64,000 nt of DNA, taken from positions 524,881 to 588,880 of the forward strand of contig OZ007033.1 in the NCBI GenBank assembly GCA_963931625.1. The letters run 5' to 3'. Shown piece after piece: positions 3,144 to 44,158 of this stretch (its first letter is position 1; each line of letters opens with the position of its first letter). The position numbers were made by a program, and so were the translations under genes. Source of the stretch: an uncultured Bacteroidales bacterium (GTDB lineage Bacteria; Bacteroidota; Bacteroidia; Bacteroidales; UBA932). The notes beneath the pieces were generated by a model, which was not told the DNA's origin, did not search any database, and saw only the letters and a program-made list of their open reading frames with translations.

Positions 3144-4478
3144 ATGTCAAGGATCGTAGTATTGGGCGGAGGTGAAAGCGGCACAGGAGCCGCCGTCCTC
3201 GCCAAGGCAAAAGGTTTCGATGTGTTCCTGTCCGACAAGGGAAAGCTGGACGGGAAATATGTCGACATCCTCAACGAATGGAAGATACCCTTCGAGGAGG
3301 GAAGGCATACGGAGGAACTGATACTGAATGCGGACGAGGTGATAAAAAGCCCCGGCATACCGTCCGGCGCCCCTATGGTGAAGAAGGTGACGGACGCCAG
3401 GATAAATGTCATCTCCGAGATAGAGTTCGCCGGAAGATATGACACGGCCAAGAAGATCTGCATCACAGGCAGCAACGGGAAGACCACCACGACATCCCTC
3501 ATCTACTATCTGCTGCAGCAGGCCGGGCTGAATGTCGGGCTGGGCGGCAACATAGGGAAAAGCTACGCATACCAGGTGGCCACTTCTTCACACGACATCT
3601 ATGTGCTGGAAATAAGCAGTTTCCAGCTCGACAACATGTATGACTTCAAGGCCGACATAGCCATCATCACCAACATCACGCCCGACCATCTGGACAGGTA
3701 TGACCACAACCTTGAGAACTATGTCAAGGCCAAGTTCCGCATCACCAGGAACATGAGCAGCGAGGACTGCTTCATATTCTGCTCCGATGACGAGATCACG
3801 GTAAGCCACCTCAACAAGATAGTGGTCAAGGCCAAGATGCTGCCATTCTCGCAGAAGAAGGAAGTGAAGCAGGGAGCCTTCCTGAAAGACGACAGGATAG
3901 TGGTCCGCTATGAAGACTCCGAATGCGACATGTTCATAAGGGAACTGGCATTGGGAGGAAAGCACAATGTCTACAATTCCATGGCAGCCGCCATAGCCGG
4001 AAAGGTGATGGACATAGACAACAAGGTCATCCGTGACAGCCTGTCCACATTCCAGCCTGTGGAACACCGGCTGGAGAAGGTGCTGAGCATAGGTGATGTG
4101 CTGTATATAAATGACTCCAAGGCCACCAATGTGGATGCGGCATGGTATGCACTTGAGTGCCAGACCCGGCCCGTGGTATGGATAGTCGGAGGCACGGACA
4201 AGGGCAACGACTACTCGGTCCTGCTGGACCTTGCGAAAGAAAAGGTCAAGGCAATGATCTGCATGGGCCTCGACAACCGCAAGTTCCACGAGTCATTCGG
4301 AGGCATCGTCCCTGAAATACATGATGTGACCTCGGCGCAGGATGCGGTCAGGCTGGCCAGCAGCATAGCCAAGGCGGGGGATGTGGTCCTCCTCTCCCCT
4401 TGCTGCGCAAGCTTTGACCTCTTCGAAAACTACGAGGACAGGGGCCGCAAATTCAAGGAGGCCGTAAGAAATCTCTGA
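3144..4478 (+). CDS. murD: UDP-N-acetylmuramoyl-L-alanine--D-glutamate ligase
   Basis: LGGGESG, ITGSNGKTTT, LEISSFQL, NDSKATN, SPCCASFD. Confidence 0.96.
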   Translation: MSRIVVLGGGESGTGAAVLAKAKGFDVFLSDKGKLDGKYVDILNEWKIPFEEGRHTEELILNADEVIKSPGIPSGAPMVKKVTDARINVISEIEFAGRYDTAKKICITGSNGKTTTTSLIYYLLQQAGLNVGLGGNIGKSYAYQVATSSHDIYVLEISSFQLDNMYDFKADIAIITNITPDHLDRYDHNLENYVKAKFRITRNMSSEDCFIFCSDDEITVSHLNKIVVKAKMLPFSQKKEVKQGAFLKDDRIVVRYEDSECDMFIRELALGGKHNVYNSMAAAIAGKVMDIDNKVIRDSLSTFQPVEHRLEKVLSIGDVLYINDSKATNVDAAWYALECQTRPVVWIVGGTDKGNDYSVLLDLAKEKVKAMICMGLDNRKFHESFGGIVPEIHDVTSAQDAVRLASSIAKAGDVVLLSPCCASFDLFENYEDRGRKFKEAVRNL

Positions 4479-5885: not shown

Positions 5886-7079
5886 ATGACAGAAAGAAGA
5901 CCCATACGCGCAATAATAAGCGGAGGAGGCACGGGAGGCCACATCTTCCCTGCCCTCTCGATTGCAGACAGGCTGACGGAAGAGGCTCCGGGCAGCGAAA
6001 TCCTGTTCGTGGGGGCTGAGGGCAGGATGGAAATGGAAAAGGTCCCTGCAGCAGGCTATCGGATTACAGGGCTCCCGGTGGCCGGTCTGCAGCGCAGGCT
6101 CACCCCTTCCAACCTCGCCCTGCCGTTCAAGGTGCTCAAAAGCATCTCAATGGCGGGAAAGATCATAGACAGCTTCAGGCCAGACATCGCGATAGGAGTA
6201 GGCGGATATGCAAGTGCTCCCCTGCTGTGGGCGGCTTCCCGCAAGGGCATCCCGACCCTCATCCAGGAACAGAACGGCTTTGCCGGACTCACCAACAAGA
6301 TACTCGGAAAGAGAGCTGACAGGATATGCGTGGCATACGAGGGGATGGAAAGATTCTTCCCTGCAGACAAAATTGTCCTCACCGGCAACCCTATACGCAA
6401 TGCGATAGTGCCTGCGGACGCTGCCATGAAACGCGAAGCCCTGGACTTCTACAGGCTTGACCCGGAGAAGCGGCACATATTCATCGTGGGCGGAAGCCTC
6501 GGAAGCGGCACTCTCAACAAGTCCATGATGAAATGGATTTCGGACGGCTGTCCCGGAGGAGATGATGTGGAAGTGCTCTGGCAATGCGGGAAATATTACA
6601 AGGAAGGGACAGACAGGTTCATGGACTCAGTCAGGGACAAGATGCCAGGTGTATGCACACGCATACATCATTTTGACTTCATAAAGAGGATGGACCTTGC
6701 ATACGCCGCTGCGGACATAGTGGTGTCAAGGTCGGGGGCAAGCTCGGTGTCGGAACTTTGCGCAGCCCGCAAGGCGGTCATCTTCGTCCCGTCCCCGAAT
6801 GTGGCGGAAGACCATCAGACCCACAATGCAATGGCACTCGTAAAGAAAGACGCGGCAATGCTGGTGACTGACGCGGAAGCCCAGGAAAAGCTGATGAGAA
6901 CAGCCTGCAGACTGGTGCATGATGACGCCGTAATCATGAAAATGGAGAAAAACATAGCCGCACTCGCACGGAAAGACGCCGCCGGAGCGATAGTGGAAGA
7001 GATATACGGCATACTTGACAAAAAGGCCTCCGCCGGGGATGACGGCAAGTACAAGACTGACAAAAAGACAAAGCAATGA
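5886..7079 (+). CDS. murG: Lipid II GlcNAc transferase
   Basis: GGGTGGHIFP, GVGGYAS, QEQN, GGSLGS, SRSGA, DHQTHNA. Confidence 0.96.
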   Translation: MTERRPIRAIISGGGTGGHIFPALSIADRLTEEAPGSEILFVGAEGRMEMEKVPAAGYRITGLPVAGLQRRLTPSNLALPFKVLKSISMAGKIIDSFRPDIAIGVGGYASAPLLWAASRKGIPTLIQEQNGFAGLTNKILGKRADRICVAYEGMERFFPADKIVLTGNPIRNAIVPADAAMKREALDFYRLDPEKRHIFIVGGSLGSGTLNKSMMKWISDGCPGGDDVEVLWQCGKYYKEGTDRFMDSVRDKMPGVCTRIHHFDFIKRMDLAYAAADIVVSRSGASSVSELCAARKAVIFVPSPNVAEDHQTHNAMALVKKDAAMLVTDAEAQEKLMRTACRLVHDDAVIMKMEKNIAALARKDAAGAIVEEIYGILDKKASAGDDGKYKTDKKTKQ

Positions 7080-13794: not shown

Positions 13795-14096
13795 GTTTCT
13801 TCAAGAACGGAAAGGAAAACGGCCGGACCCGGGGCACAGGCTCCGGGAACGGTTCTGCCACAAACAGCAGCGGCAATGCGGACGGGAGACCAAAAGGGAA
13901 GTTCTCCTGGATGCAGATGGTGTACCTGATCATCGCCATGCTTGCAATGGGCATAGCCTCAATCTATGTAACCAGGATAATAGACGGCGACAGTGACCAT
14001 TTCGACTGGATCATGACCATCGCCCTGATGCTCATCGGCGTAAGCAACGCCCTGCAGTTCTTCTACTCAAGAAGAAACAACGCAAGAAGAAGATAA
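13791..14096 (+). CDS. Small hypothetical inner-membrane protein (101 aa, 2 predicted TM helices)
   Basis: ATG overlaps the gltX stop (ATGA 13791-13794). G/N/S-rich N-terminus, two hydrophobic segments, Arg-rich tail; fills the gap before rpiB. Confidence 0.7.
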   Translation: MSFFKNGKENGRTRGTGSGNGSATNSSGNADGRPKGKFSWMQMVYLIIAMLAMGIASIYVTRIIDGDSDHFDWIMTIALMLIGVSNALQFFYSRRNNARRR

Positions 14097-16939: not shown

Positions 16940-18199
16940 CTACTGCACAGGAATGCGCCTGTTGACATTCTTGTAGCCTGAAGATGCATAGAACAGGATG
17001 TAGGCAAGTCCGAGAAGGATGAACCAGAATGAAGGGATATATCCCATCCAGTCGGCAAGGGCTCCCTGTATGGCAGGTATGATGCCGCCTCCGCAGACCA
17101 TGAACATGAAGAAGCCTGTTGCCGAAGAAGTGTATTTTCCGAGTCCCTCAACGGCCATGTTGAAGATGTTCCCCCACATCACGGATGTGAAAAGCCCTGT
17201 AAGGATGAGAAATACTGCATTGATCGGAATGTCGGTAAAAATTCTTTCACCGAATGACACAAGGAGGTCGGAAGGGGTGAATATCGCCATGATTATCAAG
17301 GCCATTGAGCCGAATGTCGCAAATGAGAGCATGTCATGGCTGGCGAAGCGGGAACCGAAATATCCGCCCACCAGACGGCCAATGAACATGAAGAACCAGT
17401 ACAGGCTGACAATGACGCCCGCCTTTCCTGGCATGAGCCCGATCTCATGGGTAAGATAGAGATTGGTGGTGTTTGCGATTCCGATCTCTATGCCGGTATA
17501 TATGAAGATGGCCACAGCTCCGAGCACGAAATGACGGAATGAAAAGCAGCTGTATATGCCGTCCCCCTTATGCGGGAGTTCCACCTTGATCATATCCTCA
17601 TCGAACTCAGGTTCAGGCATCCTGGTGAAAAGGATGACTATGAAGGCAATGACAAAGATGCCGATGGCAATGAAGAAGGCCGGATTGGCATCAGCAATGG
17701 AATGGCTGGCATGCTGGCCGGTAAGCCATCCGATGAAGAACGGGACGAAGGTCGCCGCAAGCGAGTTGAGTGAATTTCCGTACTGGAGAAGCTGGTTGCC
17801 CTTCTTTCCGCCCTGGCCTATGGAGTTGAGCATCGGGTTGACCACCGCATTGAGCATGCAGGCGGCAAAGCCTGAAACGAATGCGCCGAGCAGATATACC
17901 CAGAAACTTTCAAGGACTCCGGACAGCCAGAATGTGCCGACTCCGAGGATGCCGATGCAGACCGCCACAAGGGACGATACCTTATAACCGTATTTCTTCA
18001 ATATGTAGCCGGCAGGAAGTCCCATACATGCGTATGCAAGGAAATTTATGAGATTGCCGAGCTGGGAAACCGCATTTGAAAAGCCGAACTGGAATTTGAC
18101 TATGATGCCGAGAGGATTGTGAAGCCCCGTGATGAATGCTATCATGAAGAACAGCGCAAACATGATGGCTATCGCCGGAATATAATTCTTTTTGGTCAT
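16940..18199 (-). CDS. MFS sugar transporter (FucP/GluP glucose-galactose/N-acetylhexosamine family)
   Basis: 12-TM pattern, QLGNLINFLAY, GIEIGI, SVMWGNIF, GGGIIPAIQG. Confidence 0.85.
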   Translation of the reverse strand: MTKKNYIPAIAIMFALFFMIAFITGLHNPLGIIVKFQFGFSNAVSQLGNLINFLAYACMGLPAGYILKKYGYKVSSLVAVCIGILGVGTFWLSGVLESFWVYLLGAFVSGFAACMLNAVVNPMLNSIGQGGKKGNQLLQYGNSLNSLAATFVPFFIGWLTGQHASHSIADANPAFFIAIGIFVIAFIVILFTRMPEPEFDEDMIKVELPHKGDGIYSCFSFRHFVLGAVAIFIYTGIEIGIANTTNLYLTHEIGLMPGKAGVIVSLYWFFMFIGRLVGGYFGSRFASHDMLSFATFGSMALIIMAIFTPSDLLVSFGERIFTDIPINAVFLILTGLFTSVMWGNIFNMAVEGLGKYTSSATGFFMFMVCGGGIIPAIQGALADWMGYIPSFWFILLGLAYILFYASSGYKNVNRRIPVQ

Positions 18200-18340
18200 C
18201 GCAGTATGGTTTAGTTACACTTCAAAGATTTTTGAAAAATCGTTTAAATATAAAAAATTTATCAGAGAATGTTTAGAAAATTTTAAGAATCTGTTTAGAA
18301 AAAGCGGATCATGCCCCGGGACAAGCCCGTATGCAGGCAT

Positions 18341-18375
18341 AAAAAGAGGGTAACCAAAAGTTTCCGGTTACCCTC
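18341..18375 (-). terminator. Intrinsic terminator after the ROK kinase
   Basis: Perfect 10-bp stem GAGGGTAACC (18346-55) / GGTTACCCTC (18366-75), followed by T5 on the minus strand. Confidence 0.8.
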
Positions 18376-18433
18376 AAACATCTTTCTTCGAAAGACTGAA
18401 CCTGTCTTAACCCCCTCCGGTCGCTTTCGAATG

Positions 18434-19408
18434 TCACAGTTCCCAGGCCAGTGCCGATGCCCCGAGAATGGCGGCATCCGACTCCTTGAGCTGTGAGAAG
18501 ACTATCTTTATCCTGTTCCTCCAGAGAGGAAGAAGATTGGCGTTCATTGAATTCATTATAGGCTCATAAAGGTACTCCTTGGCCCTCGCAAGCCCTCCGA
18601 AAAGAACAATGGCTTCCGGAGCGCTGAAAGCGACAAAATCGGCGAATGACTCACCGAGAATCTTTCCGGTGAACTCGAATATCTTGAGGGCCATCTTGTC
18701 CCCCTCCTTTGCAGCCTCATAGACATCCTTTGAGGATATGCTGTCAAGGCTTCTCAAGACGGAAGGTTCGTCCGTCATCTCCAGCCACTCGCGGGCCGTA
18801 CGTGCCACACCGGTGGCAGAGCAATATGTCTCCAGACAGCCTGTCTTACCGCAGTTGCATATGCGGCCGTTATGGCGGACGGCACATGTGTGCCCGAGCT
18901 CACCTGCAAATCCGTCATGTCCGTAGACCACTTCCCCGTTGATGACTATGCCGCTGCCGACACCGGTGCCGAGCGTGATCATGATGAAATTCTTCATGCC
19001 CCTTGCTGCCCCGTAGGTCATTTCACCTACCGCAGCCGCATTGGCATCATTGGTAAGGGCAACCTTGAGTCCGCCTGTCTTCATGGAAAGCAGGGAAGCG
19101 AACGGTATTGTCTTTGCCCCTCCCCATACGAGATTGACGGCATTCTCGATATTCCCGGTGTAATAGTTCCCGTTAGGGGCGCCCACACCGATGCCGCGGA
19201 TCTTCCCTTCCGAATCCGACTCCTTGATTATCTTTTCAAGGGCGGAGGCAAGCTCGTCTATATAAAGATTGACATTATCATATGTATCTGTCCTGATCAC
19301 CGTCTGGGAAAGCACCTGTCCCCTGGTGTCCACTATGCCCATCTTCGTAGTCTGTCCGCCGACATCTATGCCGACCACATACGGCTTTTCAACTGTATTG
19401 AGTTCCAT
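18434..19408 (-). CDS. ROK-family hexokinase/glucokinase
   Basis: GIDVGGQTTK, NDANAAAVGE, GTGVGSG, GELGH, zinc motif CNCGKTGCLE. Alternative start at 19429. Confidence 0.9.
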   Translation of the reverse strand: MELNTVEKPYVVGIDVGGQTTKMGIVDTRGQVLSQTVIRTDTYDNVNLYIDELASALEKIIKESDSEGKIRGIGVGAPNGNYYTGNIENAVNLVWGGAKTIPFASLLSMKTGGLKVALTNDANAAAVGEMTYGAARGMKNFIMITLGTGVGSGIVINGEVVYGHDGFAGELGHTCAVRHNGRICNCGKTGCLETYCSATGVARTAREWLEMTDEPSVLRSLDSISSKDVYEAAKEGDKMALKIFEFTGKILGESFADFVAFSAPEAIVLFGGLARAKEYLYEPIMNSMNANLLPLWRNRIKIVFSQLKESDAAILGASALAWEL

Positions 19409-19443
19409 ATCCTTATTTTGTTTATGCATTCACAGAAGTACGG

Positions 19444-20727
19444 CTACCTTTCTGCCGCGTCCCTGCTCGGCTTCGAGAGGAAAAGGGCGAATACGAGAAG
19501 GTATGCCAGGGCGACCACCAGCACCCAATAGCTGTTTACATAACCGAAGCTGTCCGAAACAGCACCCTGGATAAAAGGAAGGATTCCGCCGCCGCAGACC
19601 ATTGTCATGAAAAGGCCGGAAGCTATTGAAGTGTATTTTCCGAGACCTTCCACTGCAAGGTTGAATATTGCTCCCCACATGATGGAAGTGCAGAGTCCGC
19701 AGAGCACGAAGAACACCACGCCGAGAGGGATATCAACAAGGCTGAAGGAAAGGTTGGAGCTGAAGGCCGGGAACTTGACGAATGTTTCCGGAAGGAACAT
19801 TCCCACAAGAAGGAACACGATGGCCACAGAACTTACCGCAGTCAGCATGACCTTGCTGGATACCTTGCCTCCGAGAAGGCCTCCGAGAAGACGGCCGCAG
19901 AGCATGAGCAGCCAGTACATTCCCACGACGGTACCTGCCACACCTGCAGACATGCCGACATCAGGAGATGTCATATAGAGGTTCGCAATGTTAGGGATGC
20001 CCACTTCAATGCCCACATAGAGGAAGATGGCAATCACACCGAACACGAGATTCTTGTGCATAAGTGCCTTGGAAACGCTCGTCATCGTGCTTTCCTCCTC
20101 CTGCTTCGCAGCCTTGGCAGCTTCAAGTTCAGGTTCAGGAATCTGTGAGAACAGAATGATGACGAAAGCCAGCGCAAACACGCCCATCGCTATGAACAGG
20201 GCAGGATTGGCATCGCTGATGGCAGTATCGGCCGTAACTTCACCGATGAGATAGCCGACAAGCACAGGAACTATCGTGGCTGAAAGAGAATTCAGGGAAC
20301 CGCCGAACTGTATCAGCTGGTTGCCCCTGTTCCCGCCGCCGCCGAGAGTGTTGAGCATAGGGTTCACCACGGTGTTGAGCATACACATCGAGAATCCCGA
20401 AATGAACGCACCCGTAAGATATACGGCAAAGCTCTCCGCAACTCCGGAAAGGAACGATATTCCCACACCTATGAAACCTACCGCAACGGCTGCAAGGGAA
20501 GTCACCTTATATCCGTATTTCTTGAGGATGAATCCTGCAGGAAGCCCCATGAAGGCGTATGCAATGAAATTGGCAAGGTTGCCGAGCTGCGACATCGCGT
20601 TGGTGACTTCAAACTGGGATTTGACGATGATACCCATCGGGTTCTGGAGTCCTGTGACAAAAGATATCATCGCGAACAGGAAGAACATGATCGCGATGGC
20701 CAGGACATTGCTTTTTTTCTTAGACAT
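19444..20727 (-). CDS. MFS sugar transporter (FucP/GluP family), paralog of 16940-18199
   Basis: 12-TM pattern, QLGNLANFIAY, GIEVGI, SIMWGAIF, GGGILPFIQG. Confidence 0.87.
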   Translation of the reverse strand: MSKKKSNVLAIAIMFFLFAMISFVTGLQNPMGIIVKSQFEVTNAMSQLGNLANFIAYAFMGLPAGFILKKYGYKVTSLAAVAVGFIGVGISFLSGVAESFAVYLTGAFISGFSMCMLNTVVNPMLNTLGGGGNRGNQLIQFGGSLNSLSATIVPVLVGYLIGEVTADTAISDANPALFIAMGVFALAFVIILFSQIPEPELEAAKAAKQEEESTMTSVSKALMHKNLVFGVIAIFLYVGIEVGIPNIANLYMTSPDVGMSAGVAGTVVGMYWLLMLCGRLLGGLLGGKVSSKVMLTAVSSVAIVFLLVGMFLPETFVKFPAFSSNLSFSLVDIPLGVVFFVLCGLCTSIMWGAIFNLAVEGLGKYTSIASGLFMTMVCGGGILPFIQGAVSDSFGYVNSYWVLVVALAYLLVFALFLSKPSRDAAER

Positions 20728-20825
20728 TTTTCCAATGATTTATGTTAATAATTATAATGGTCACAAAAATCGTGTAAAGTTACAAATTTTTTAAAAAGTC
20801 CCGGAAAAATATCTCGATCATAACA

Positions 20826-20861
20826 AAAAAATAAAGCCGGTCCCCTCCCCAAGGAACCGGC
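20826..20861 (-). terminator. Intrinsic terminator of the candidate sRNA
   Basis: Minus strand GCCGGTTCCTT-GGGG-AGGGGACCGGC (11-bp stem, 2 G:U pairs), then TTTATTTTTTT. Confidence 0.8.
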
Positions 20862-20915
20862 CTGTATATAAAACGAACTTAACAAATAGACACGAAAAAA
20901 TTTTTTCTTATGTCC
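20826..20915 (-). ncRNA. Candidate small regulatory RNA (~90 nt)
   Basis: Bounded by a full consensus promoter (20920-20950) and an intrinsic terminator (20826-20861); no ATG-initiated ORF inside. Confidence 0.6.
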
Positions 20916-20919
20916 GATA

Positions 20920-20950
20920 CAAAGGTAATGATTAAAAACAACATTCCAAA
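20920..20950 (-). promoter_or_regulatory. Consensus Bacteroidota sigma-A promoter TTTG-N19-TACCTTTG
   Basis: Forward CAAAGGTA at 20920-27 and CAAA at 20947-50, exactly 19 nt apart. Confidence 0.75.
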
Positions 20951-21089
20951 TTTTTTGTAAAAAATTTTTATAAAAATGTCAAATATCCTTTAATTATCAT
21001 TCGGACAGAGTGCAAAATCAGCAAAATATATAAGAACACAGGCAGCATTTGCCGGGAAATCATCATTTTCCTTCCGGCGCATGCCCCCG

Positions 21090-23399
21090 TCATATTTCCA
21101 GACGCAGGGCGACACTCCAGCGGAAAGGCTTTGATGTCTGGAAAAAGTCATTCCCGACCGAACGGAAATAAAAGACCTCATATTCGGTGCAATTGATGTT
21201 ATCGGCACGGAACACAAGGGAGAACATCCTGAACGACAATGAGATGTCTGCACCCGCAGCAATATGGAACGGGGTGGAAAGCGTATTGGATTCATTCCAC
21301 CATATACGCCCTGCGCCGGAGGCATCAGCTGCCAGGGACAGGCTTCTCACCACACCTGAATTGAACGGAAAGCGGTATCCGGCACGGACATGCAGGGTAC
21401 TGGAAGGAGAATACGGAATCCTGTTGCCGCCCCAGTCGCCTGATCCGTCGTCATATTCCACAAACCTCGCATCAGTGAATCCGAACGAAAGAGAAGCATG
21501 AAAGCCCTTGAAGGCATAGTTTAGCCATGCCTCGGCCCCTATGCTTCTGGATCGGCCCACATTGGCCATCATCCGGCCTGTCGACTGCCCCGGAGGGAAG
21601 ACCGTCATCTGCTGGTCCCTGCATGCGATGTAGAATGCGGAAGCCGCTCCTTCTATCCTGTGTACCCCGGTCCTGCCTTGCAGGGAGAGGTCGAAATTGC
21701 CTCCGATCTCATGGTTGAAGCTGCTCTCCGGGCCATAGACCGTATTCTCGGCAGTCACTGCGCCGACGGATTCCGCACCGTTGCTGCCGCCTCCGGAAGG
21801 CATGACAGTCCCCATGGCATCGGCCATCATCCCTGCCGTCATCATGTTCTGGAGGATATCGGAAAAAATCTGGGTGTTGAATCCGCCGGCCCTGTATCCC
21901 TTTGAAGCCACGGCAAAAAGCCTCAGCCCTCCCAGACCGCCAAGGTCTCCGAAATCATACAGCACGGAAAGCTTGGGGATGAATTCAAAATGGCCGTCTG
22001 CGACCTTTCCGATATACTCCGTGCTGAACGGCCGGCCTTCAAAAAACGGGGACAGGGAATAATTCACAGCCGCCCTGCTGTCATAATCCATGCTGCTGCC
22101 TTCATAGTCAAGCCTCAGCCCTGCCGTGAACAGCCATTTTCCCACGGAAAAATACGATTCATGATATATGGCAGCATTCCACGACCGCAGGATGAAGTCA
22201 CTGCTGATGTCAAACATTCCGTCTGTTATGTCAAACTGCATCCTGAAAGGGATGGAAGGGTTCTGGAATACGGAATTGACATTGTCCTCGATGAGGGTGC
22301 GGATGCCGTCCTCCTTGAAGGTGACAGGGGCGGACATGGAATTGTGCCTGAAGAATCCGGTAATCCCGGTCTGCCAGTTCCACCACGATGTCCTCCATGA
22401 CTTTTCCGGCTTCAGGACAAGTTCCTGTGTGACCGCATGCTCATCCTGGGTCTGGCGGAGCGTGAACATCGAAGCCGGAGTGAAATCCTGGTCCAGCCTC
22501 ATGTCGTCCATGAGGAACTGCCAGCTCGTGACGGAGTTCAGAGAGAAATTTTCATGCAAGTACCTGAATATGAGTCCTTCGGTCACATTGAGCCTTTTGT
22601 ATGAAGAGGGATCATTGTAAGACACCGGATGCAGGACGCCGTCTTCAAGATGCCTGTAGGGCCAGCCACCCTGCGTGAGTGCAGATGCAGAAAGGATGTT
22701 CTCGAAAAAGAGTCCGGGAACAAGTTCCTTTTCCAGCCTCAGACGGAATGAAAGCGCATCTGAGGCATCACATTTTTCTCCGGTATATTCATTCGTATAA
22801 TATCCGTCCGTATGCCTGTAGCTGACCATGCCCCCTATCGCCAGTCCGCAGAGGGTCTTCCCGTATGCGGAAACCCCAGCCGAAACCGTATTGGCGGAGC
22901 CGTATTCGACATGTGCCCTGACTCCCTGGTAGAGCGACGGGGAAACCGTACCGACAGCCAGCACCCCGCACAGGGAATTCCGCCCGTAAAGCGTTCCCTG
23001 CGGCCCTCTCAGCAGGTCCAGCCTGCGTATGTCCATCATATCGAAATCGTAGCTGCTCTTGTTCAGGATCGGTATGCCGTCAATATAAAGGCCCATGACC
23101 GGATTGTCCATCCTTGACCCGAAACCTCTGAGATAAATGGTCGATGTCATGGACGAGCCATAGTCCGGAATGTTCAGATTCGGCACCAGGGAGGAAAGGT
23201 TCTTAGGACTTTCTATTCCGGCATCCTCAATGTCTTTCAGATACATCGTGGACACCGGCGAGGCCAGCATCTCCACCGGAAGCGGCTGTTTCACCGAAGT
23301 CACGAGCACAGAGCCGGACAATGTGTCAAGAATTGCATGATCCGCATCCGTGGCATTCTCAGATACAGGCAGCAATGACAGAAGCAATGTAAGCAGCAT
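21090..23399 (-). CDS. TonB-dependent outer-membrane receptor (non-SusC; micronutrient type)
   Basis: TonB-box-like DTLSGSVLVTS, plug PNLNIPDYGS...LRGPQGTLYGRN, beta-barrel, C-terminal LRLEI. Confidence 0.9.
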   Translation of the reverse strand: MLLTLLLSLLPVSENATDADHAILDTLSGSVLVTSVKQPLPVEMLASPVSTMYLKDIEDAGIESPKNLSSLVPNLNIPDYGSSMTSTIYLRGFGSRMDNPVMGLYIDGIPILNKSSYDFDMMDIRRLDLLRGPQGTLYGRNSLCGVLAVGTVSPSLYQGVRAHVEYGSANTVSAGVSAYGKTLCGLAIGGMVSYRHTDGYYTNEYTGEKCDASDALSFRLRLEKELVPGLFFENILSASALTQGGWPYRHLEDGVLHPVSYNDPSSYKRLNVTEGLIFRYLHENFSLNSVTSWQFLMDDMRLDQDFTPASMFTLRQTQDEHAVTQELVLKPEKSWRTSWWNWQTGITGFFRHNSMSAPVTFKEDGIRTLIEDNVNSVFQNPSIPFRMQFDITDGMFDISSDFILRSWNAAIYHESYFSVGKWLFTAGLRLDYEGSSMDYDSRAAVNYSLSPFFEGRPFSTEYIGKVADGHFEFIPKLSVLYDFGDLGGLGGLRLFAVASKGYRAGGFNTQIFSDILQNMMTAGMMADAMGTVMPSGGGSNGAESVGAVTAENTVYGPESSFNHEIGGNFDLSLQGRTGVHRIEGAASAFYIACRDQQMTVFPPGQSTGRMMANVGRSRSIGAEAWLNYAFKGFHASLSFGFTDARFVEYDDGSGDWGGNRIPYSPSSTLHVRAGYRFPFNSGVVRSLSLAADASGAGRIWWNESNTLSTPFHIAAGADISLSFRMFSLVFRADNINCTEYEVFYFRSVGNDFFQTSKPFRWSVALRLEI

Positions 23400-23424
23400 A
23401 ATATGTCCTTTTGGATAAAGGCTG

Positions 23425-23479
23425 CAAAATTACTTCTTGCCATGACAAGATTTTAGGACAATACATAGGCATTTTAGGA
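23425..23479 (-). promoter_or_regulatory. -7 box (TAATTTTG) plus tandem TCCTAAAAT direct repeats upstream of the TBDR
   Basis: Forward CAAAATTA at 23425-32; ATTTTAGGA at 23450-58 and 23471-79 (21-bp period). Confidence 0.55.
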
Positions 23480-23483
23480 TTTT

Positions 23484-24281
23484 TTATACATCACCTCTGA
23501 AATCAGTGGGAGTCAACCCCGTATGCCTTTTGAAGAAACGCGAGAAATAGGACTGGTCGTCAAAGCCTGCCGCAGCCGCCACATCTATCACCGGCATGCC
23601 TGTACGGCGCAGGAGATGTTTTGCAAGAGCGAGCCGGGAAAGGTCCACCCAGTCCCCTGCACTGCGTCCGGTACATCTTTTCACCGTCCTGTTCAGATGG
23701 TTCGGAGTGACCCCCAACCTCCGGGCATAACCGGACACGGCAATGATTCCGCAGCTCCTGTCAAACACCATATCCAGAAATCTGCTGCACAGGACATTGC
23801 GGACTGCAGGCCCGGTCATGAATGAATCCGCCAGCTCCAGGAACAGTCCGAGTGCCGACACTGCCAGTTTCCCGCTGCCGGCATCCTCCCCTGCCCTCAG
23901 AAGCCTTTCAAGAAGCCTTTCGACCAGCCCGGCATCACTCTCCGGAACCGTGACCTGTACGACCTGCCTGCTCTGGAGCACCCTGTAATTCATGTTGTCG
24001 AGAAAGGAATCCGGAAATGTCCCCATATATCCCGTGCTGCCGTCATAATATTTCACAGAGAACTCCGTCCCGCCAGGTATCACGAGCAACTCCCCTCCAT
24101 GAACAATGAAAGGCTCCGCCCCCGCATCCGCAAGCAGTTCTCCCCCGGAAAGATACAGAAAACATGTATTCTGTGTCACTGCAGCAGGAATCTGCGGAGC
24201 CATCCCATACCCGGCCGTATCCAGCCTCCTTACAACAAACCCGGCACCCATGTGCCCGTGCGGATTGTGAAAATCTGCCAT
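23484..24281 (-). CDS. AraC-family transcriptional regulator
   Basis: C-terminal double HTH: YARRLGVTPNHLNRTVK...AGFDDQSYFSRFFKRHTGLTPTDFR. Start 24281 preferred because a TAGCTTTG box sits at 24300-07 (ORF track starts at 24329). Confidence 0.88.
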   Translation of the reverse strand: MADFHNPHGHMGAGFVVRRLDTAGYGMAPQIPAAVTQNTCFLYLSGGELLADAGAEPFIVHGGELLVIPGGTEFSVKYYDGSTGYMGTFPDSFLDNMNYRVLQSRQVVQVTVPESDAGLVERLLERLLRAGEDAGSGKLAVSALGLFLELADSFMTGPAVRNVLCSRFLDMVFDRSCGIIAVSGYARRLGVTPNHLNRTVKRCTGRSAGDWVDLSRLALAKHLLRRTGMPVIDVAAAAGFDDQSYFSRFFKRHTGLTPTDFRGDV

Positions 24282-24348
24282 CTTATTCCCTTTTGCCGCC
24301 AAAGCTACGGAGGATTCGGTGAAATGCAATGAATCCGGGACAAATTCA

Positions 24349-44127: not shown

Positions 44128-44158
44128 CAAATGTAGTAATTTCAACATTGTCTGCAAA
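44128..44158 (-). promoter_or_regulatory. Consensus sigma-A promoter TTTG-N19-TACATTTG for the ECF sigma gene
   Basis: Forward CAAATGTA at 44128-35 and CAAA at 44155-58. Confidence 0.7.

What the first reader, a model, noticed from the sequence alone, without database searches (positions are those of the whole stretch)
20826..20950. Candidate independent ~90-nt sRNA upstream of the sugar transport/kinase operon
Seen (minus strand): perfect TTTG-N19-TACCTTTG promoter, then a transcript TCGGACATAAGAAAAAATTTTTTCGTGTCTATTTGTTAAGTTCGTTTTATATACAG, then an 11-bp terminator plus U-tract. There is no ATG ORF. A separate near-consensus -7 box (TAACTTTA, 20775-82) could drive the downstream MFS-ROK operon. 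The U-rich single-stranded core could pair with the A-rich translation-initiation regions Bacteroidota use instead of Shine-Dalgarno sequences (inference). An alternative is an attenuator leader controlling read-through into the sugar operon. The 14-bp palindrome GAAAAAATTTTTTC (20894-907) near the start could be an operator.
Basis: partly seen in the sequence, partly recalled or inferred. Interest (0 to 1): 0.7.

Follow-up and report, generated by a model that had tools for sequence, protein, structure and literature searches.

The report
Conserved small RNA gene beside sugar-uptake operon
The flagged 90-base stretch is a real, self-contained small non-coding RNA gene (own promoter, hairpin, invariant unpaired core, terminator) that recurs in more than 120 gut and rumen Bacteroidales contigs, matches no catalogued RNA family, and probably regulates sugar-related genes, though its transcript and targets have not been seen directly.

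Summary
TTTG-N19-TACCTTTG is one of only two perfect Bacteroides promoter matches in 64 kb (0.1 expected). The 91-nt transcript folds better than all 200 shuffles (z = -3.7).

The element is conserved. Seven of 80 related genomes carry it, and at least 120 metagenome contigs do. Of 122 copies with enough flanking sequence to judge, 119 have a -7 box at a fixed distance, and most of those also have a -33 box. They share a 5' hairpin, a 28-nt core (invariant where ascertainment was unbiased) and a terminator hairpin. Of 22 base pairs, 16 show compensatory changes, and 98% of cells are paired against 79% in shuffles.

It is single-copy, has no conserved ORF and matches no Rfam family or searchable paper. 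In about 40% of lineages the next gene is convergent, so it is a stand-alone unit and not an obligate leader. Its commonest neighbours are an AraC-family regulator upstream and an MFS hexose transporter plus ROK kinase downstream.

The best reading is a new trans-acting sRNA family of the GibS/FopS kind. Expression and targets are unproven: only assembled metatranscriptome contigs were available, and pairing with the neighbouring MFS start region was not significant.

The parts
20947..20950 (-). -33 promoter box TTTG
   Evidence: It is invariant in the 8 genome-derived homologues. TTTG sits at a 19-20 nt spacing in 101 of the 119 copies that have a perfect -7 box.
20920..20927 (-). -7 promoter box TACCTTTG (TAnnTTTG consensus)
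   Evidence: 2 perfect full-promoter matches in 64 kb, 0.1 expected. A perfect TAnnTTTG lies at a fixed distance in 119 of 122 evaluable copies.
20826..20915 (-). Predicted ~90-nt sRNA transcript. The start is inferred from promoter geometry and the 3' end from the U-tract.
   Evidence: The covariance model R1 matches 20823-20919 at 95.3 bits, E = 1.5e-20. Fold z-score is -3.73. There is no ATG, and the TTG-initiated ORF 20885-20745 is not conserved in the homologues I read by eye (17 codons in L004). Within the species there are no polymorphisms in the promoter or RNA across 7 strains, while the upstream spacer varies.
20888..20915 (-). 5' hairpin P1 (GGACAU...GUGUCU).
   Evidence: Helix 1 has 9 pairs, 98.2% of cells paired and 4 pairs with compensatory changes. 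The apical sequence differs between lineages but stays self-complementary.
20865..20892 (-). 28-nt core TGTCTATTTGTTAAGTTCGTTTTATATA. The part at 20887-20864 is predicted single-stranded and is the putative seed or protein-binding site.
   Evidence: It is invariant in 8 genomes found without a sequence anchor. It is unpaired in the MFE and consensus folds. In the metagenome set 21 of these nt are invariant by construction of the search.
20824..20863 (-). Intrinsic terminator: 13-pair hairpin with a GGGG tetraloop (20863-20834) plus a U-tract
   Evidence: best terminator-like site in 10 kb; helix 2 has 13 pairs, 12 with compensatory changes, and 98.0% of cells paired.
20775..20782 (-). Separate -7-like box TAACTTTA of the MFS-ROK operon promoter. 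It is not part of the sRNA.
   Evidence: An equivalent box (TAACTTAG, TAACTTGG or TAGCTTTG) lies at about the same distance from the MFS ATG in other species. In L001, which lacks the sRNA, the box is TATCTTTG.
16940..20727 (-). Downstream neighbours: MFS sugar transporter (20727-19444), ROK glucokinase-family kinase (19429-18434), second MFS transporter (18199-16940)
   Evidence: Pfam and NCBIfam. One metatranscriptome contig spans all three genes. The MFS-ROK pair lies downstream on the same strand in 24 of 59 non-redundant loci.
21090..24329 (-). Upstream neighbours: TonB-dependent receptor (23399-21090) and AraC-family regulator (24329-23484)
   Evidence: The AraC-TBDR-sRNA order recurs in L102, L153, L194 and L198. 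In 25 of 62 non-redundant loci a ~300-aa AraC-family gene lies directly upstream on the same strand.

Best explanation
The region is an independently transcribed, single-copy small non-coding RNA gene of about 90 nt. It founds a previously uncatalogued sRNA family of uncultured gut and rumen Bacteroidales.

Shown by sequence and comparison:
- A canonical housekeeping-type Bacteroidota promoter (TTTG-N19/20-TAnnTTTG) starts the RNA at the foot of a 5' hairpin (P1).
- A roughly 24-nt U-rich stretch of the 28-nt invariant core stays unpaired.
- A GC-rich hairpin with a G-rich or GNRA-like tetraloop plus a U-tract ends the transcript.

Inferred:
- The unpaired invariant stretch is the working part. 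It most likely base-pairs in trans with several mRNAs, probably at A-rich translation-initiation regions, as the Bacteroides sRNAs GibS and FopS do. An RRM-type RNA-binding protein may assist.
- P1 and the terminator protect the two ends.
- The gene repeatedly sits just after an AraC-family regulator gene and just before an MFS hexose transporter/ROK kinase operon. It is therefore probably part of a sugar-responsive circuit.
- In this organism some transcripts may read through the terminator into the MFS operon.
For: Conservation as a unit:
- 7 of 80 loci retrieved only through the MFS protein carry it, with identical promoter boxes and an identical 28-nt core, although the MFS proteins are only 68-80% identical.
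- At least 120 metagenome contigs hold the core. 119 of 122 evaluable copies have a perfect -7 box at a fixed distance, and 101 have TTTG at a 19-20 nt spacing.

Selection at the RNA level:
- 22 pairs, 16 with compensatory changes.
- 98.1% of cells are paired, against 79.2% in shuffles (0 of 500 reach it) and 43-54% when partners are slid.
- The core itself is never paired.

Stand-alone unit:
- The downstream gene is convergent in 24 of 59 non-redundant loci. It often ends within 40-65 nt of the core, that is, at the terminator.
- A SAM-II riboswitch follows it in L099.
- The MFS gene has its own conserved promoter box.

Other points:
- One copy per locus.
- No conserved ORF.
- No polymorphism in 7 strains of this species, while the spacer upstream varies.
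- Sugar link: AraC-family regulator, MFS (GluP/NagP/FucP-like), ROK glucokinase family and GalM neighbours.
- The proposed mode of action is documented for GibS and FopS (PMC7366714; PMC11697453).
Against: - No direct transcript evidence exists. Only assembled metatranscriptome contigs were available. They break inside the element because its k-mers are shared between species, and some include promoter or flanking sequence. They show neither ends nor abundance.
- No target was identified. Duplexes of the core with neighbouring MFS start regions are only marginally better than with shuffled cores (-10.0 vs -8.0 +/- 1.2 kcal/mol; 17 of 300 shuffles reach it). The window's own MFS start region pairs poorly (-4.9 kcal/mol).
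- AraC start regions and 3' ends show nothing. Window-wide ranking gives no compelling hit.
- An absolutely invariant 28 nt is more than a simple seed needs.
- The closest relative by MFS identity (L001, 87%) lacks the RNA at this position.
- Many homologues have weak U-tracts.
Confidence: 0.6

Rival explanations
1. The element is a cis-acting leader or attenuator. Transcription from the strong upstream promoter either stops at the hairpin or reads through into the MFS-ROK operon. The invariant core would be the binding site for a factor that sets the read-through rate. This could be its only function, or a second function alongside a trans role.
For: MFS-ROK lies downstream on the same strand within 80-530 nt of the core in 24 of 59 non-redundant loci. 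In two chicken-gut metatranscriptomes, the contig that carries MFS1-ROK(-MFS2) extends about 80 nt upstream of the predicted MFS start, into the terminator hairpin (to 20850 and 20854). Nothing is assembled for 20915-21290. Where the sRNA precedes MFS, the MFS promoter lacks a -33 TTTG and often has an imperfect -7 box. L001, which has no sRNA, has a full consensus promoter.
Against: In 24 of 59 lineages the downstream gene is convergent, and in 10 more it is an unrelated same-strand gene. In L099 the downstream gene has its own riboswitch. No alternative (antiterminator) pairing can be conserved, because the terminator arms vary freely while the core and P1 do not co-vary with them. The MFS promoter box is conserved at a fixed distance from the ATG. 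Contig ends are assembly breaks, and DNA carry-over cannot be excluded.
Confidence: 0.17
2. The RNA is a protein-binding or sequestering RNA. The invariant single-stranded 24-28 nt would be a high-affinity site for an RNA-binding protein, for example an RRM-type protein such as RbpB, or ribosomal protein S1. The RNA would then act by titrating or recruiting that protein, not by base-pairing.
For: The full 28 nt are invariant in all independently ascertained copies, which is stricter than typical seed conservation. No convincing complementary site was found nearby. RbpB binds single-stranded parts of Bacteroides sRNAs over footprints of tens of nt (PMC11697453).
Against: The element is single-copy and shows no repeated motif within the RNA, unlike known sponge RNAs. 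Long conserved seeds are also typical of multi-target base-pairing sRNAs (established knowledge, e.g. GcvB and Spot 42). No protein partner could be examined here.
Confidence: 0.15
3. The element is not a functional RNA. It would be either a conserved DNA element (an operator or recombination site with a fortuitous promoter and terminator) or a tiny protein-coding gene.
For: In one human-gut lineage, synteny between strains breaks exactly at the end of the terminator. A CRISPR-Cas block is present in one strain type and absent in the other. A 4-codon frame NTG-TCT-ATT-TGT-TAA overlaps the core, with N = A, G or T in most copies.
Against: Compensatory changes in two helices show selection on RNA pairing. 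The variable N is explained by P1 pairing, and two copies have non-start codons there. The longer TTG ORF is not conserved in length or frame. Promoter boxes are kept at a fixed distance in 119 of 122 copies.
Confidence: 0.04

Closest known systems
FopS family and GibS sRNAs of Bacteroides thetaiotaomicron (PMC11697453; PMC7366714)
   Same: They are short intergenic sRNAs of Bacteroidota. FopS sRNAs are transcribed from the canonical TTTG/TAnnTTTG promoter. Both have a highly conserved single-stranded stretch that acts as a seed and end in an intrinsic terminator hairpin. They act on start regions of transporter or glycan-metabolism mRNAs that lack Shine-Dalgarno sequences, and they are linked to sugar or glycan physiology.
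   Different: There is no sequence or covariance-model similarity. Nothing in Rfam 15 reaches E < 0.6, and the FopS paper says its model was deposited in Rfam. Here the seed lies between a 5' hairpin and the terminator, whereas in FopS and GibS it is at the free 5' end. This element is single-copy, while FopS has 14 paralogues. GibS is 145 nt and has a different (PM2) promoter. The genomic context (AraC / MFS-ROK) and host lineage (uncultured Bacteroidales, not Bacteroidaceae) also differ.
SgrR-SgrS (and similar regulator-plus-adjacent-sRNA sugar modules) of Enterobacteria
   Same: An sRNA gene lies next to a transcription-factor gene and is linked to hexose uptake. The logic suggested here is a sugar-sensing regulator that drives an sRNA, which then retunes transporter expression.
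   Different: There is no homology. The regulator here is AraC-family and sits in tandem, not divergently. There is no SgrT-like ORF, and Bacteroidota have no Hfq. No evidence links the regulator to the sRNA promoter. In the window the nearest AraC gene is separated from the sRNA by a TonB-dependent receptor gene and belongs to a different subfamily from the ~300-aa AraC found directly upstream elsewhere.
Terminator-based leaders and riboswitches, e.g. the SAM-II riboswitch seen in L099
   Same: Promoter, structured RNA and terminator hairpin lie upstream of a same-strand operon in about 40% of loci.
   Different: The element also occurs with convergent or unrelated downstream genes. It has no conserved alternative pairing. 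The conserved part is unstructured, and the downstream operon has its own promoter.

Membership tests
Trans-acting intergenic sRNA of Bacteroidota (the GibS/FopS kind) | Own promoter of the TTTG / TAnnTTTG type at the proper distance | tested here: met
   A perfect -7 box is present in 119 of 122 copies, and a -33 TTTG at 19-20 nt spacing in 101.
Trans-acting intergenic sRNA of Bacteroidota (the GibS/FopS kind) | Intrinsic terminator that defines a short transcript | tested here: met
   The hairpin has 13 pairs, 12 of them covarying. The U-tract is good in the window but weak in some homologues.
Trans-acting intergenic sRNA of Bacteroidota (the GibS/FopS kind) | Conserved single-stranded seed region | tested here: met
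   The 28-nt core is invariant in 8 independently found copies. It is unpaired in the MFE and consensus folds. That it functions as a seed is an inference.
Trans-acting intergenic sRNA of Bacteroidota (the GibS/FopS kind) | A discrete stable transcript is detected | tested here: inconclusive
   Core k-mers occur in metatranscriptome contigs. The contigs are assemblies, they break at the shared core, and some include flanking sequence. No raw RNA reads were on offer.
Trans-acting intergenic sRNA of Bacteroidota (the GibS/FopS kind) | Base-pairing targets | tested here: inconclusive
   MFS start regions: 17 of 300 shuffled cores reach the observed mean (about 0.06). AraC: none. The window-wide ranking is uninformative. 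Genome-wide comparative prediction is not possible with these tools.
FopS / GibS sequence families, and any Rfam 15 family | Match to the family covariance model at its gathering score | tested here: not met
   No hit at gathering score in the window or in 7 homologous loci, except an unrelated SAM-II riboswitch. The best sub-threshold hits have E = 0.63-2.7 and are to unrelated families. In addition, FopS is multicopy while this element is single-copy.
Transcription attenuator / riboswitch leader | Always upstream of, and on the same strand as, the regulated gene | tested here: not met
   The downstream gene is convergent in 24 of 59 non-redundant loci and MFS in only 24 of 59.
Transcription attenuator / riboswitch leader | Conserved alternative (antiterminator) pairing or a structured aptamer | tested here: not met
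   Only two independent hairpins are conserved. The terminator arms vary without co-variation with the core or P1, and the conserved part is unstructured.
Small protein-coding gene | An ORF conserved in frame and length across homologues | tested here: not met
   There is no ATG. The TTG ORF (46 codons in the window) is 17 codons in L004 and has a different length elsewhere. The 4-codon NTG frame is explained by P1 pairing.
Regulator-linked sugar-stress sRNA (SgrS-like logic) | Transcription depends on the adjacent regulator and on a sugar signal | not testable with these tools
   Only the association is shown. An AraC-family gene lies directly upstream in 25 of 62 non-redundant loci, and AraC-TBDR lies upstream in others.

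The most novel reading that the evidence does not exclude
The RNA is a lineage-wide hub riboregulator of hexose uptake and metabolism in uncultured gut and rumen Bacteroidales. An AraC-type sugar sensor would switch it on. It would act through an unusually long invariant (24-28 nt) single-stranded seed on many Shine-Dalgarno-less start regions. In genomes where it precedes MFS-ROK, it would double as a read-through-controlled leader, making it both a trans regulator and a cis regulator. Its 3' end may also serve as an insertion hotspot for genomic islands, as seen with a CRISPR-Cas block in one lineage.
Probability: 0.2. Interest if true: 0.65.

Novelty: new member of a known kind. Interest (0 to 1): 0.5.

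Why it matters
Almost all knowledge of Bacteroidota sRNAs comes from Bacteroides thetaiotaomicron. The abundant uncultured Bacteroidales of poultry, ruminant and human guts have no described riboregulators.

This element gives such lineages a well-defined candidate supported by covariation. It has a covariance model, more than 120 instances, an obvious functional core and a suggestive link to an AraC regulator and a hexose transporter-kinase operon. If it is a trans-acting regulator, the invariant core makes its targets predictable across genomes. It would then offer a handle on how these organisms prioritise simple sugars.

It does not reveal a new kind of mechanism.

Tried and rejected
- **Rfam.** The whole window was searched at gathering score, the 600-nt region at E <= 10, and 7 homologous loci at gathering score. 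Nothing relevant came up. The S15-Flavobacteria leader hit (E = 0.63, 20942-21020) and the ctRNA_pT181 hit (E = 2.7) are chance-level and out of context.
- **Literature.** Full-text searches for the core sequence in DNA and RNA form, on both strands, gave 0 papers. Topic searches found only the B. thetaiotaomicron work.
- **GibS identity.** Rejected. Length, promoter type, structure and locus all differ.
- **Extra or diverged copies.** The covariance model found none in the window or in 200 loci. There were no exact core matches in viral contigs.
- **Long complementary site in the window.** None besides the gene itself.
- **Cis targets.** MFS start regions were not significant. AraC start regions and 3' ends showed nothing. 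Ranking of window genes was uninformative.
- **Expression.** Five read-laying runs covered chicken-gut, human-gut and 'organism B/E' RNA runs. Only contigs were available, and they were not decisive.
- **Operator reading of the palindrome.** Rejected in favour of RNA hairpin P1.
- **tRNA or other RNA near the L088 homologue.** None.
- **Organism name.** It could not be obtained beyond 'uncultured Bacteroidales, chicken gut'. The relatives with names are Candidatus Cryptobacteroides MAGs.

Full report
**1. The observation**

Read on the minus strand, the 362-nt spacer lies between a TonB-dependent receptor gene (23399-21090) and an MFS transporter gene (20727-19444).

- -33 box TTTG at 20950-20947, then a 19-nt spacer, then -7 box TACCTTTG at 20927-20920.
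- The quoted transcript sequence, with no ATG.
- GAAAAAATTTTTTC at 20907-20894.
- A hairpin at 20863-20834 followed by TATTTTTTTG.
- TAACTTTA at 20782-20775.

The terminator is the top-ranked terminator-like site in a 10-kb scan. It has 13 pairs including wobbles and 7 G-C pairs. The complete promoter pattern TTTG-N19-TAnnTTTG occurs only twice in the 64-kb window, against 0.10 expected.

The 91-nt RNA folds into three parts: a 5' hairpin (20915-20888), a roughly 24-nt unpaired stretch, and the terminator hairpin. The energy is -29.3 kcal/mol, against -17.4 +/- 3.2 for shuffles, and 0 of 200 shuffles fold as well. The 'palindrome' is the upper part of the 5' hairpin.

**2. It is conserved as a unit**

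I fetched 80 genomic loci through the MFS protein alone, so their selection was blind to the RNA. blastn, nhmmer and later a covariance model found the element in 7 of them: L003, L004, L016, L018, L019, L023 and L024. These are uncultured Bacteroidales, and one is named Candidatus Cryptobacteroides.

In the 8-way alignment both promoter boxes are invariant, and so is the 28-nt stretch TGTCTATTTGTTAAGTTCGTTTTATATA. The terminator arms differ but stay complementary. The neighbouring MFS proteins are only 68-80% identical.

They come from human gut, rumen, rabbit, pig and chicken samples. Nearly every one shows the same architecture.

- Of 122 evaluable copies, 119 have a perfect TAnnTTTG at a fixed distance.
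- 101 have TTTG at a 19-20 nt spacing, and most of the rest have CTTG or ATTG.

One caveat applies. In this metagenome set the 21 searched bases are invariant by construction. The unbiased evidence for invariance is the 8-genome set, together with the flanking TGTC and ATA bases.

**3. The pairing is under selection**

I made a 68-sequence alignment that was non-redundant at 93% identity. RNAalifold returned the two hairpins, with 22 pairs. After re-alignment to a covariance model, the pair counts were as follows.

| Measure | Value |
|---|---|
| Cells forming standard pairs | 98.1% |
| Same, column shuffles | 79.2% (0 of 500 reach the observed value) |
| Same, partners slid by 1-3 columns | 43-54% |
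| Pairs with compensatory double changes | 16 of 22 |
| Of those, in the terminator | 12 of 13 pairs |
| Of those, in P1 | 4 of 9 pairs |

The apical part of P1 has entirely different sequences in different lineages, for example AAGAAAAAAUUUUUUCG, GACAAAAGUUCUUUUUGUU and UCGAAGGAAACUUCA. It always pairs. This is why an operator reading of the window's palindrome is unnecessary.

The terminator loop is GGGG in most copies, and GUGA, GGGA or GCAA in others. These are stable tetraloops.

**4. What it is not**

- No Rfam 15 family matches at gathering score in the window or in seven homologous loci. The best sub-threshold hits have E = 0.63-2.7 and are to unrelated families.
- The core sequence appears in no searchable paper.
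- It is not GibS. GibS is 145 nt, has a PM2 promoter, has a free single-stranded 5' end and lies between the pab and glycogen operons.
- It is not FopS. FopS is 65-70 nt, has its seed at the 5' end, has 14 paralogues, and its model was deposited in Rfam.
- It is single-copy. The model finds one copy per locus and none elsewhere in the window.
- It has no conserved ORF. The TTG frame that runs 46 codons in the window stops after 17 codons in L004.

**5. Genomic context**

Among non-redundant loci with enough flanking sequence, the neighbours fall into a few classes.

| Position | Neighbour | Loci |
|---|---|---|
| Upstream, same strand | ~300-aa AraC-family regulator (weak AraC-type ligand-binding-domain match plus HTH_18) | 25 of 62 |
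| Upstream, same strand | TonB-dependent receptor or its calycin-like lipoprotein partner, which follow another AraC gene as in the window | 6 of 62 |
| Downstream, same strand | MFS transporter, followed by a ROK kinase | 24 of 59 |
| Downstream, convergent | Various genes, including 2 GalM (galactose mutarotase) | 24 of 59 |
| Downstream, same strand | Unrelated gene | 10 of 59 |

NCBIfam places the transporter nearest NagP, GluP and FucP, and the kinase nearest the ROK glucokinase family. All these matches are below the equivalog cut-offs, so the sugar is not defined. Galactose mutarotase is another recurrent neighbour.

The convergent downstream genes often end within 40-65 nt of the core, so the hairpin is shared. 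In L099 a SAM-II riboswitch follows immediately.

The MFS gene keeps its own -7-like box about 45-50 nt upstream of its ATG in many species. This includes L001, the closest MFS relative at 87% identity. In L001 an AraC gene is followed directly by a full consensus promoter and there is no sRNA.

Together these points make an obligate leader or attenuator function untenable as the family's general role.

**6. Expression evidence**

Only Logan contigs were available for the RNA runs.

- In two chicken-gut metatranscriptomes, a contig carrying MFS1-ROK (in X30 also MFS2, 4.4 kb) runs upstream to 20850 and 20854. That is inside the terminator hairpin and about 80 nt beyond the predicted MFS start. 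Nothing is assembled for 20915-21290.
- This pattern fits transcription that begins at the sRNA promoter, with some read-through. However, contigs necessarily break at the core because its k-mers are shared by several species in the sample.
- Flanking genes are also covered, at about half the depth, so DNA carry-over cannot be excluded.
- Homologues of other species appear in metatranscriptome contigs at depths of 3-32. They are embedded in longer contigs that include promoter or flank.

The transcript is therefore plausible but not demonstrated.

**7. Mechanism**

The element has a protected 5' hairpin, a long unpaired invariant stretch and a terminator. This is the anatomy of a base-pairing sRNA, and in Bacteroides such RNAs repress transporter and glycan-enzyme mRNAs at start regions that lack Shine-Dalgarno sequences.

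I tested the obvious cis candidates.

- In one MFS subgroup (start AAAAUGAACAAGAACAAA) the core can form 9 + 6 pairs across the start codon, at -11 to -13 kcal/mol.
- Over all 25 MFS start regions the mean is -10.0 kcal/mol. That is only marginally better than shuffled cores at -8.0 +/- 1.2, and 17 of 300 shuffles reach it.
- The window's own MFS start pairs poorly, at -4.9 kcal/mol.
- AraC start regions and 3' ends show nothing.
- The window holds no long complementary site, and its gene ranking is uninformative.

The targets are therefore probably elsewhere in the genome. Alternatively, the core is a protein-binding site, which the complete invariance of 28 nt would also fit. Within this species, seven strains show no change in the promoter or RNA apart from U-tract length, while the spacer upstream is polymorphic.

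**8. Verdict**

This is a genuine, independently transcribed small-RNA gene and the founder of an uncatalogued family in uncultured Bacteroidales. My confidence that it is a real conserved ncRNA gene is about 0.85.

| Reading | Confidence |
|---|---|
| Trans-acting regulator tied to sugar uptake | 0.6 |
| Leader or read-through function, alone or in addition | 0.17 |
| Protein-binding RNA | 0.15 |
| Non-RNA explanations | 0.04 |

It is a new member of a known kind. It is useful and well supported, but mechanistically unsurprising until its targets are known.

Noticed in passing
L096 (sRNA at 6553-6652, minus strand) versus L126 (sRNA at 13805-13904, minus strand); same pattern in L083/L091/L162/L178 versus L085/L148/L157: Strains of one human-gut lineage are 99.5% identical up to the last base of the sRNA terminator (…GGCGGCCTATCAGTTT). 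Beyond that point no similarity was found in the 6.6 kb compared. One strain type carries a CRISPR array plus ORFs that by my reading of the translations resemble cas1, cas4, cas7 and cas8c (type I-C-like; not checked against a domain library). The other carries what look like housekeeping genes. The sRNA 3' end marks a synteny breakpoint and is possibly an insertion hotspot.
   Followed up: partly
L085, L126, L148, L157, L147, L175: immediately 3' of the sRNA terminator: A second, 19-bp-stem perfect palindrome (GGCGGCCTATCAGTTTGTC … GACAAACTGATAGGCCGCC) re-uses the terminator's 3' arm. Its loop occurs in both orientations (TCTTCTGA or TCAGAAGA) in different contigs.
   Followed up: no
L099:4219-4278 (minus strand): A SAM-II riboswitch (RF01726, 53.6 bits against a gathering score of 44) lies directly downstream of the sRNA homologue (4327-4425), ahead of a 447-aa gene.
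   Followed up: no
L142:2076-2163 and L185 (equivalent position): This copy of the core has no promoter and no terminator (model score only 42.5 bits). It is flanked by a ~21-nt direct repeat (CAGCCACCCGGACAATGATTC) and sits next to an AraC-TBDR pair on the opposite strand. It looks like a decayed or rearranged copy.
   Followed up: no
window 44128-44158 (minus strand): This is the only other perfect TTTG-N19-TAnnTTTG promoter match in the 64-kb window (TTTGCAGACAATGTTGAAATTACTACATTTG). I did not examine what it drives.
   Followed up: no
window 18375-18346 (minus strand): A strong terminator-like hairpin (13 pairs, then TTTTTATG) lies between the ROK gene and the second MFS gene. Even so, one metatranscriptome contig (X30) spans MFS1-ROK-MFS2 without a break.
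   Followed up: no
window 20757-20739 (minus strand); the same element in L001:3966-3990 and many other loci: The MFS 5' UTR contains a strongly conserved A/U-rich element (UUAUAAUUAUUAACAUAAA) about 12-30 nt before the ATG. It is present whether or not the sRNA is in the locus. It is not convincingly complementary to the sRNA core.
   Followed up: partly
window 20893-20879 (minus strand) and all homologues: A 4-codon frame NTG-TCT-ATT-TGT-TAA overlaps the 3' arm of P1 and the core. N is A, G or T (all possible start codons) in most copies but not all (AAG in L164, GGG in L191). P1 pairing explains the variation, so it is probably not a coding frame.
   Followed up: partly
L088:2855-3010: The intergenic stretch just downstream of the sRNA homologue is covered by many short, variant contigs at high depth (up to ~124) in four small 'organism B' runs of uncertain type. 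No tRNA or Rfam family lies there. I cannot explain it.
   Followed up: partly
L001:2946-4000: L001 is the closest relative of the window's MFS gene (87% aa identity). It has an AraC-family gene followed directly by a full-consensus MFS promoter, with no TonB-dependent receptor gene and no sRNA in between. The receptor gene and the sRNA are therefore variable insertions between regulator and operon.
   Followed up: partly
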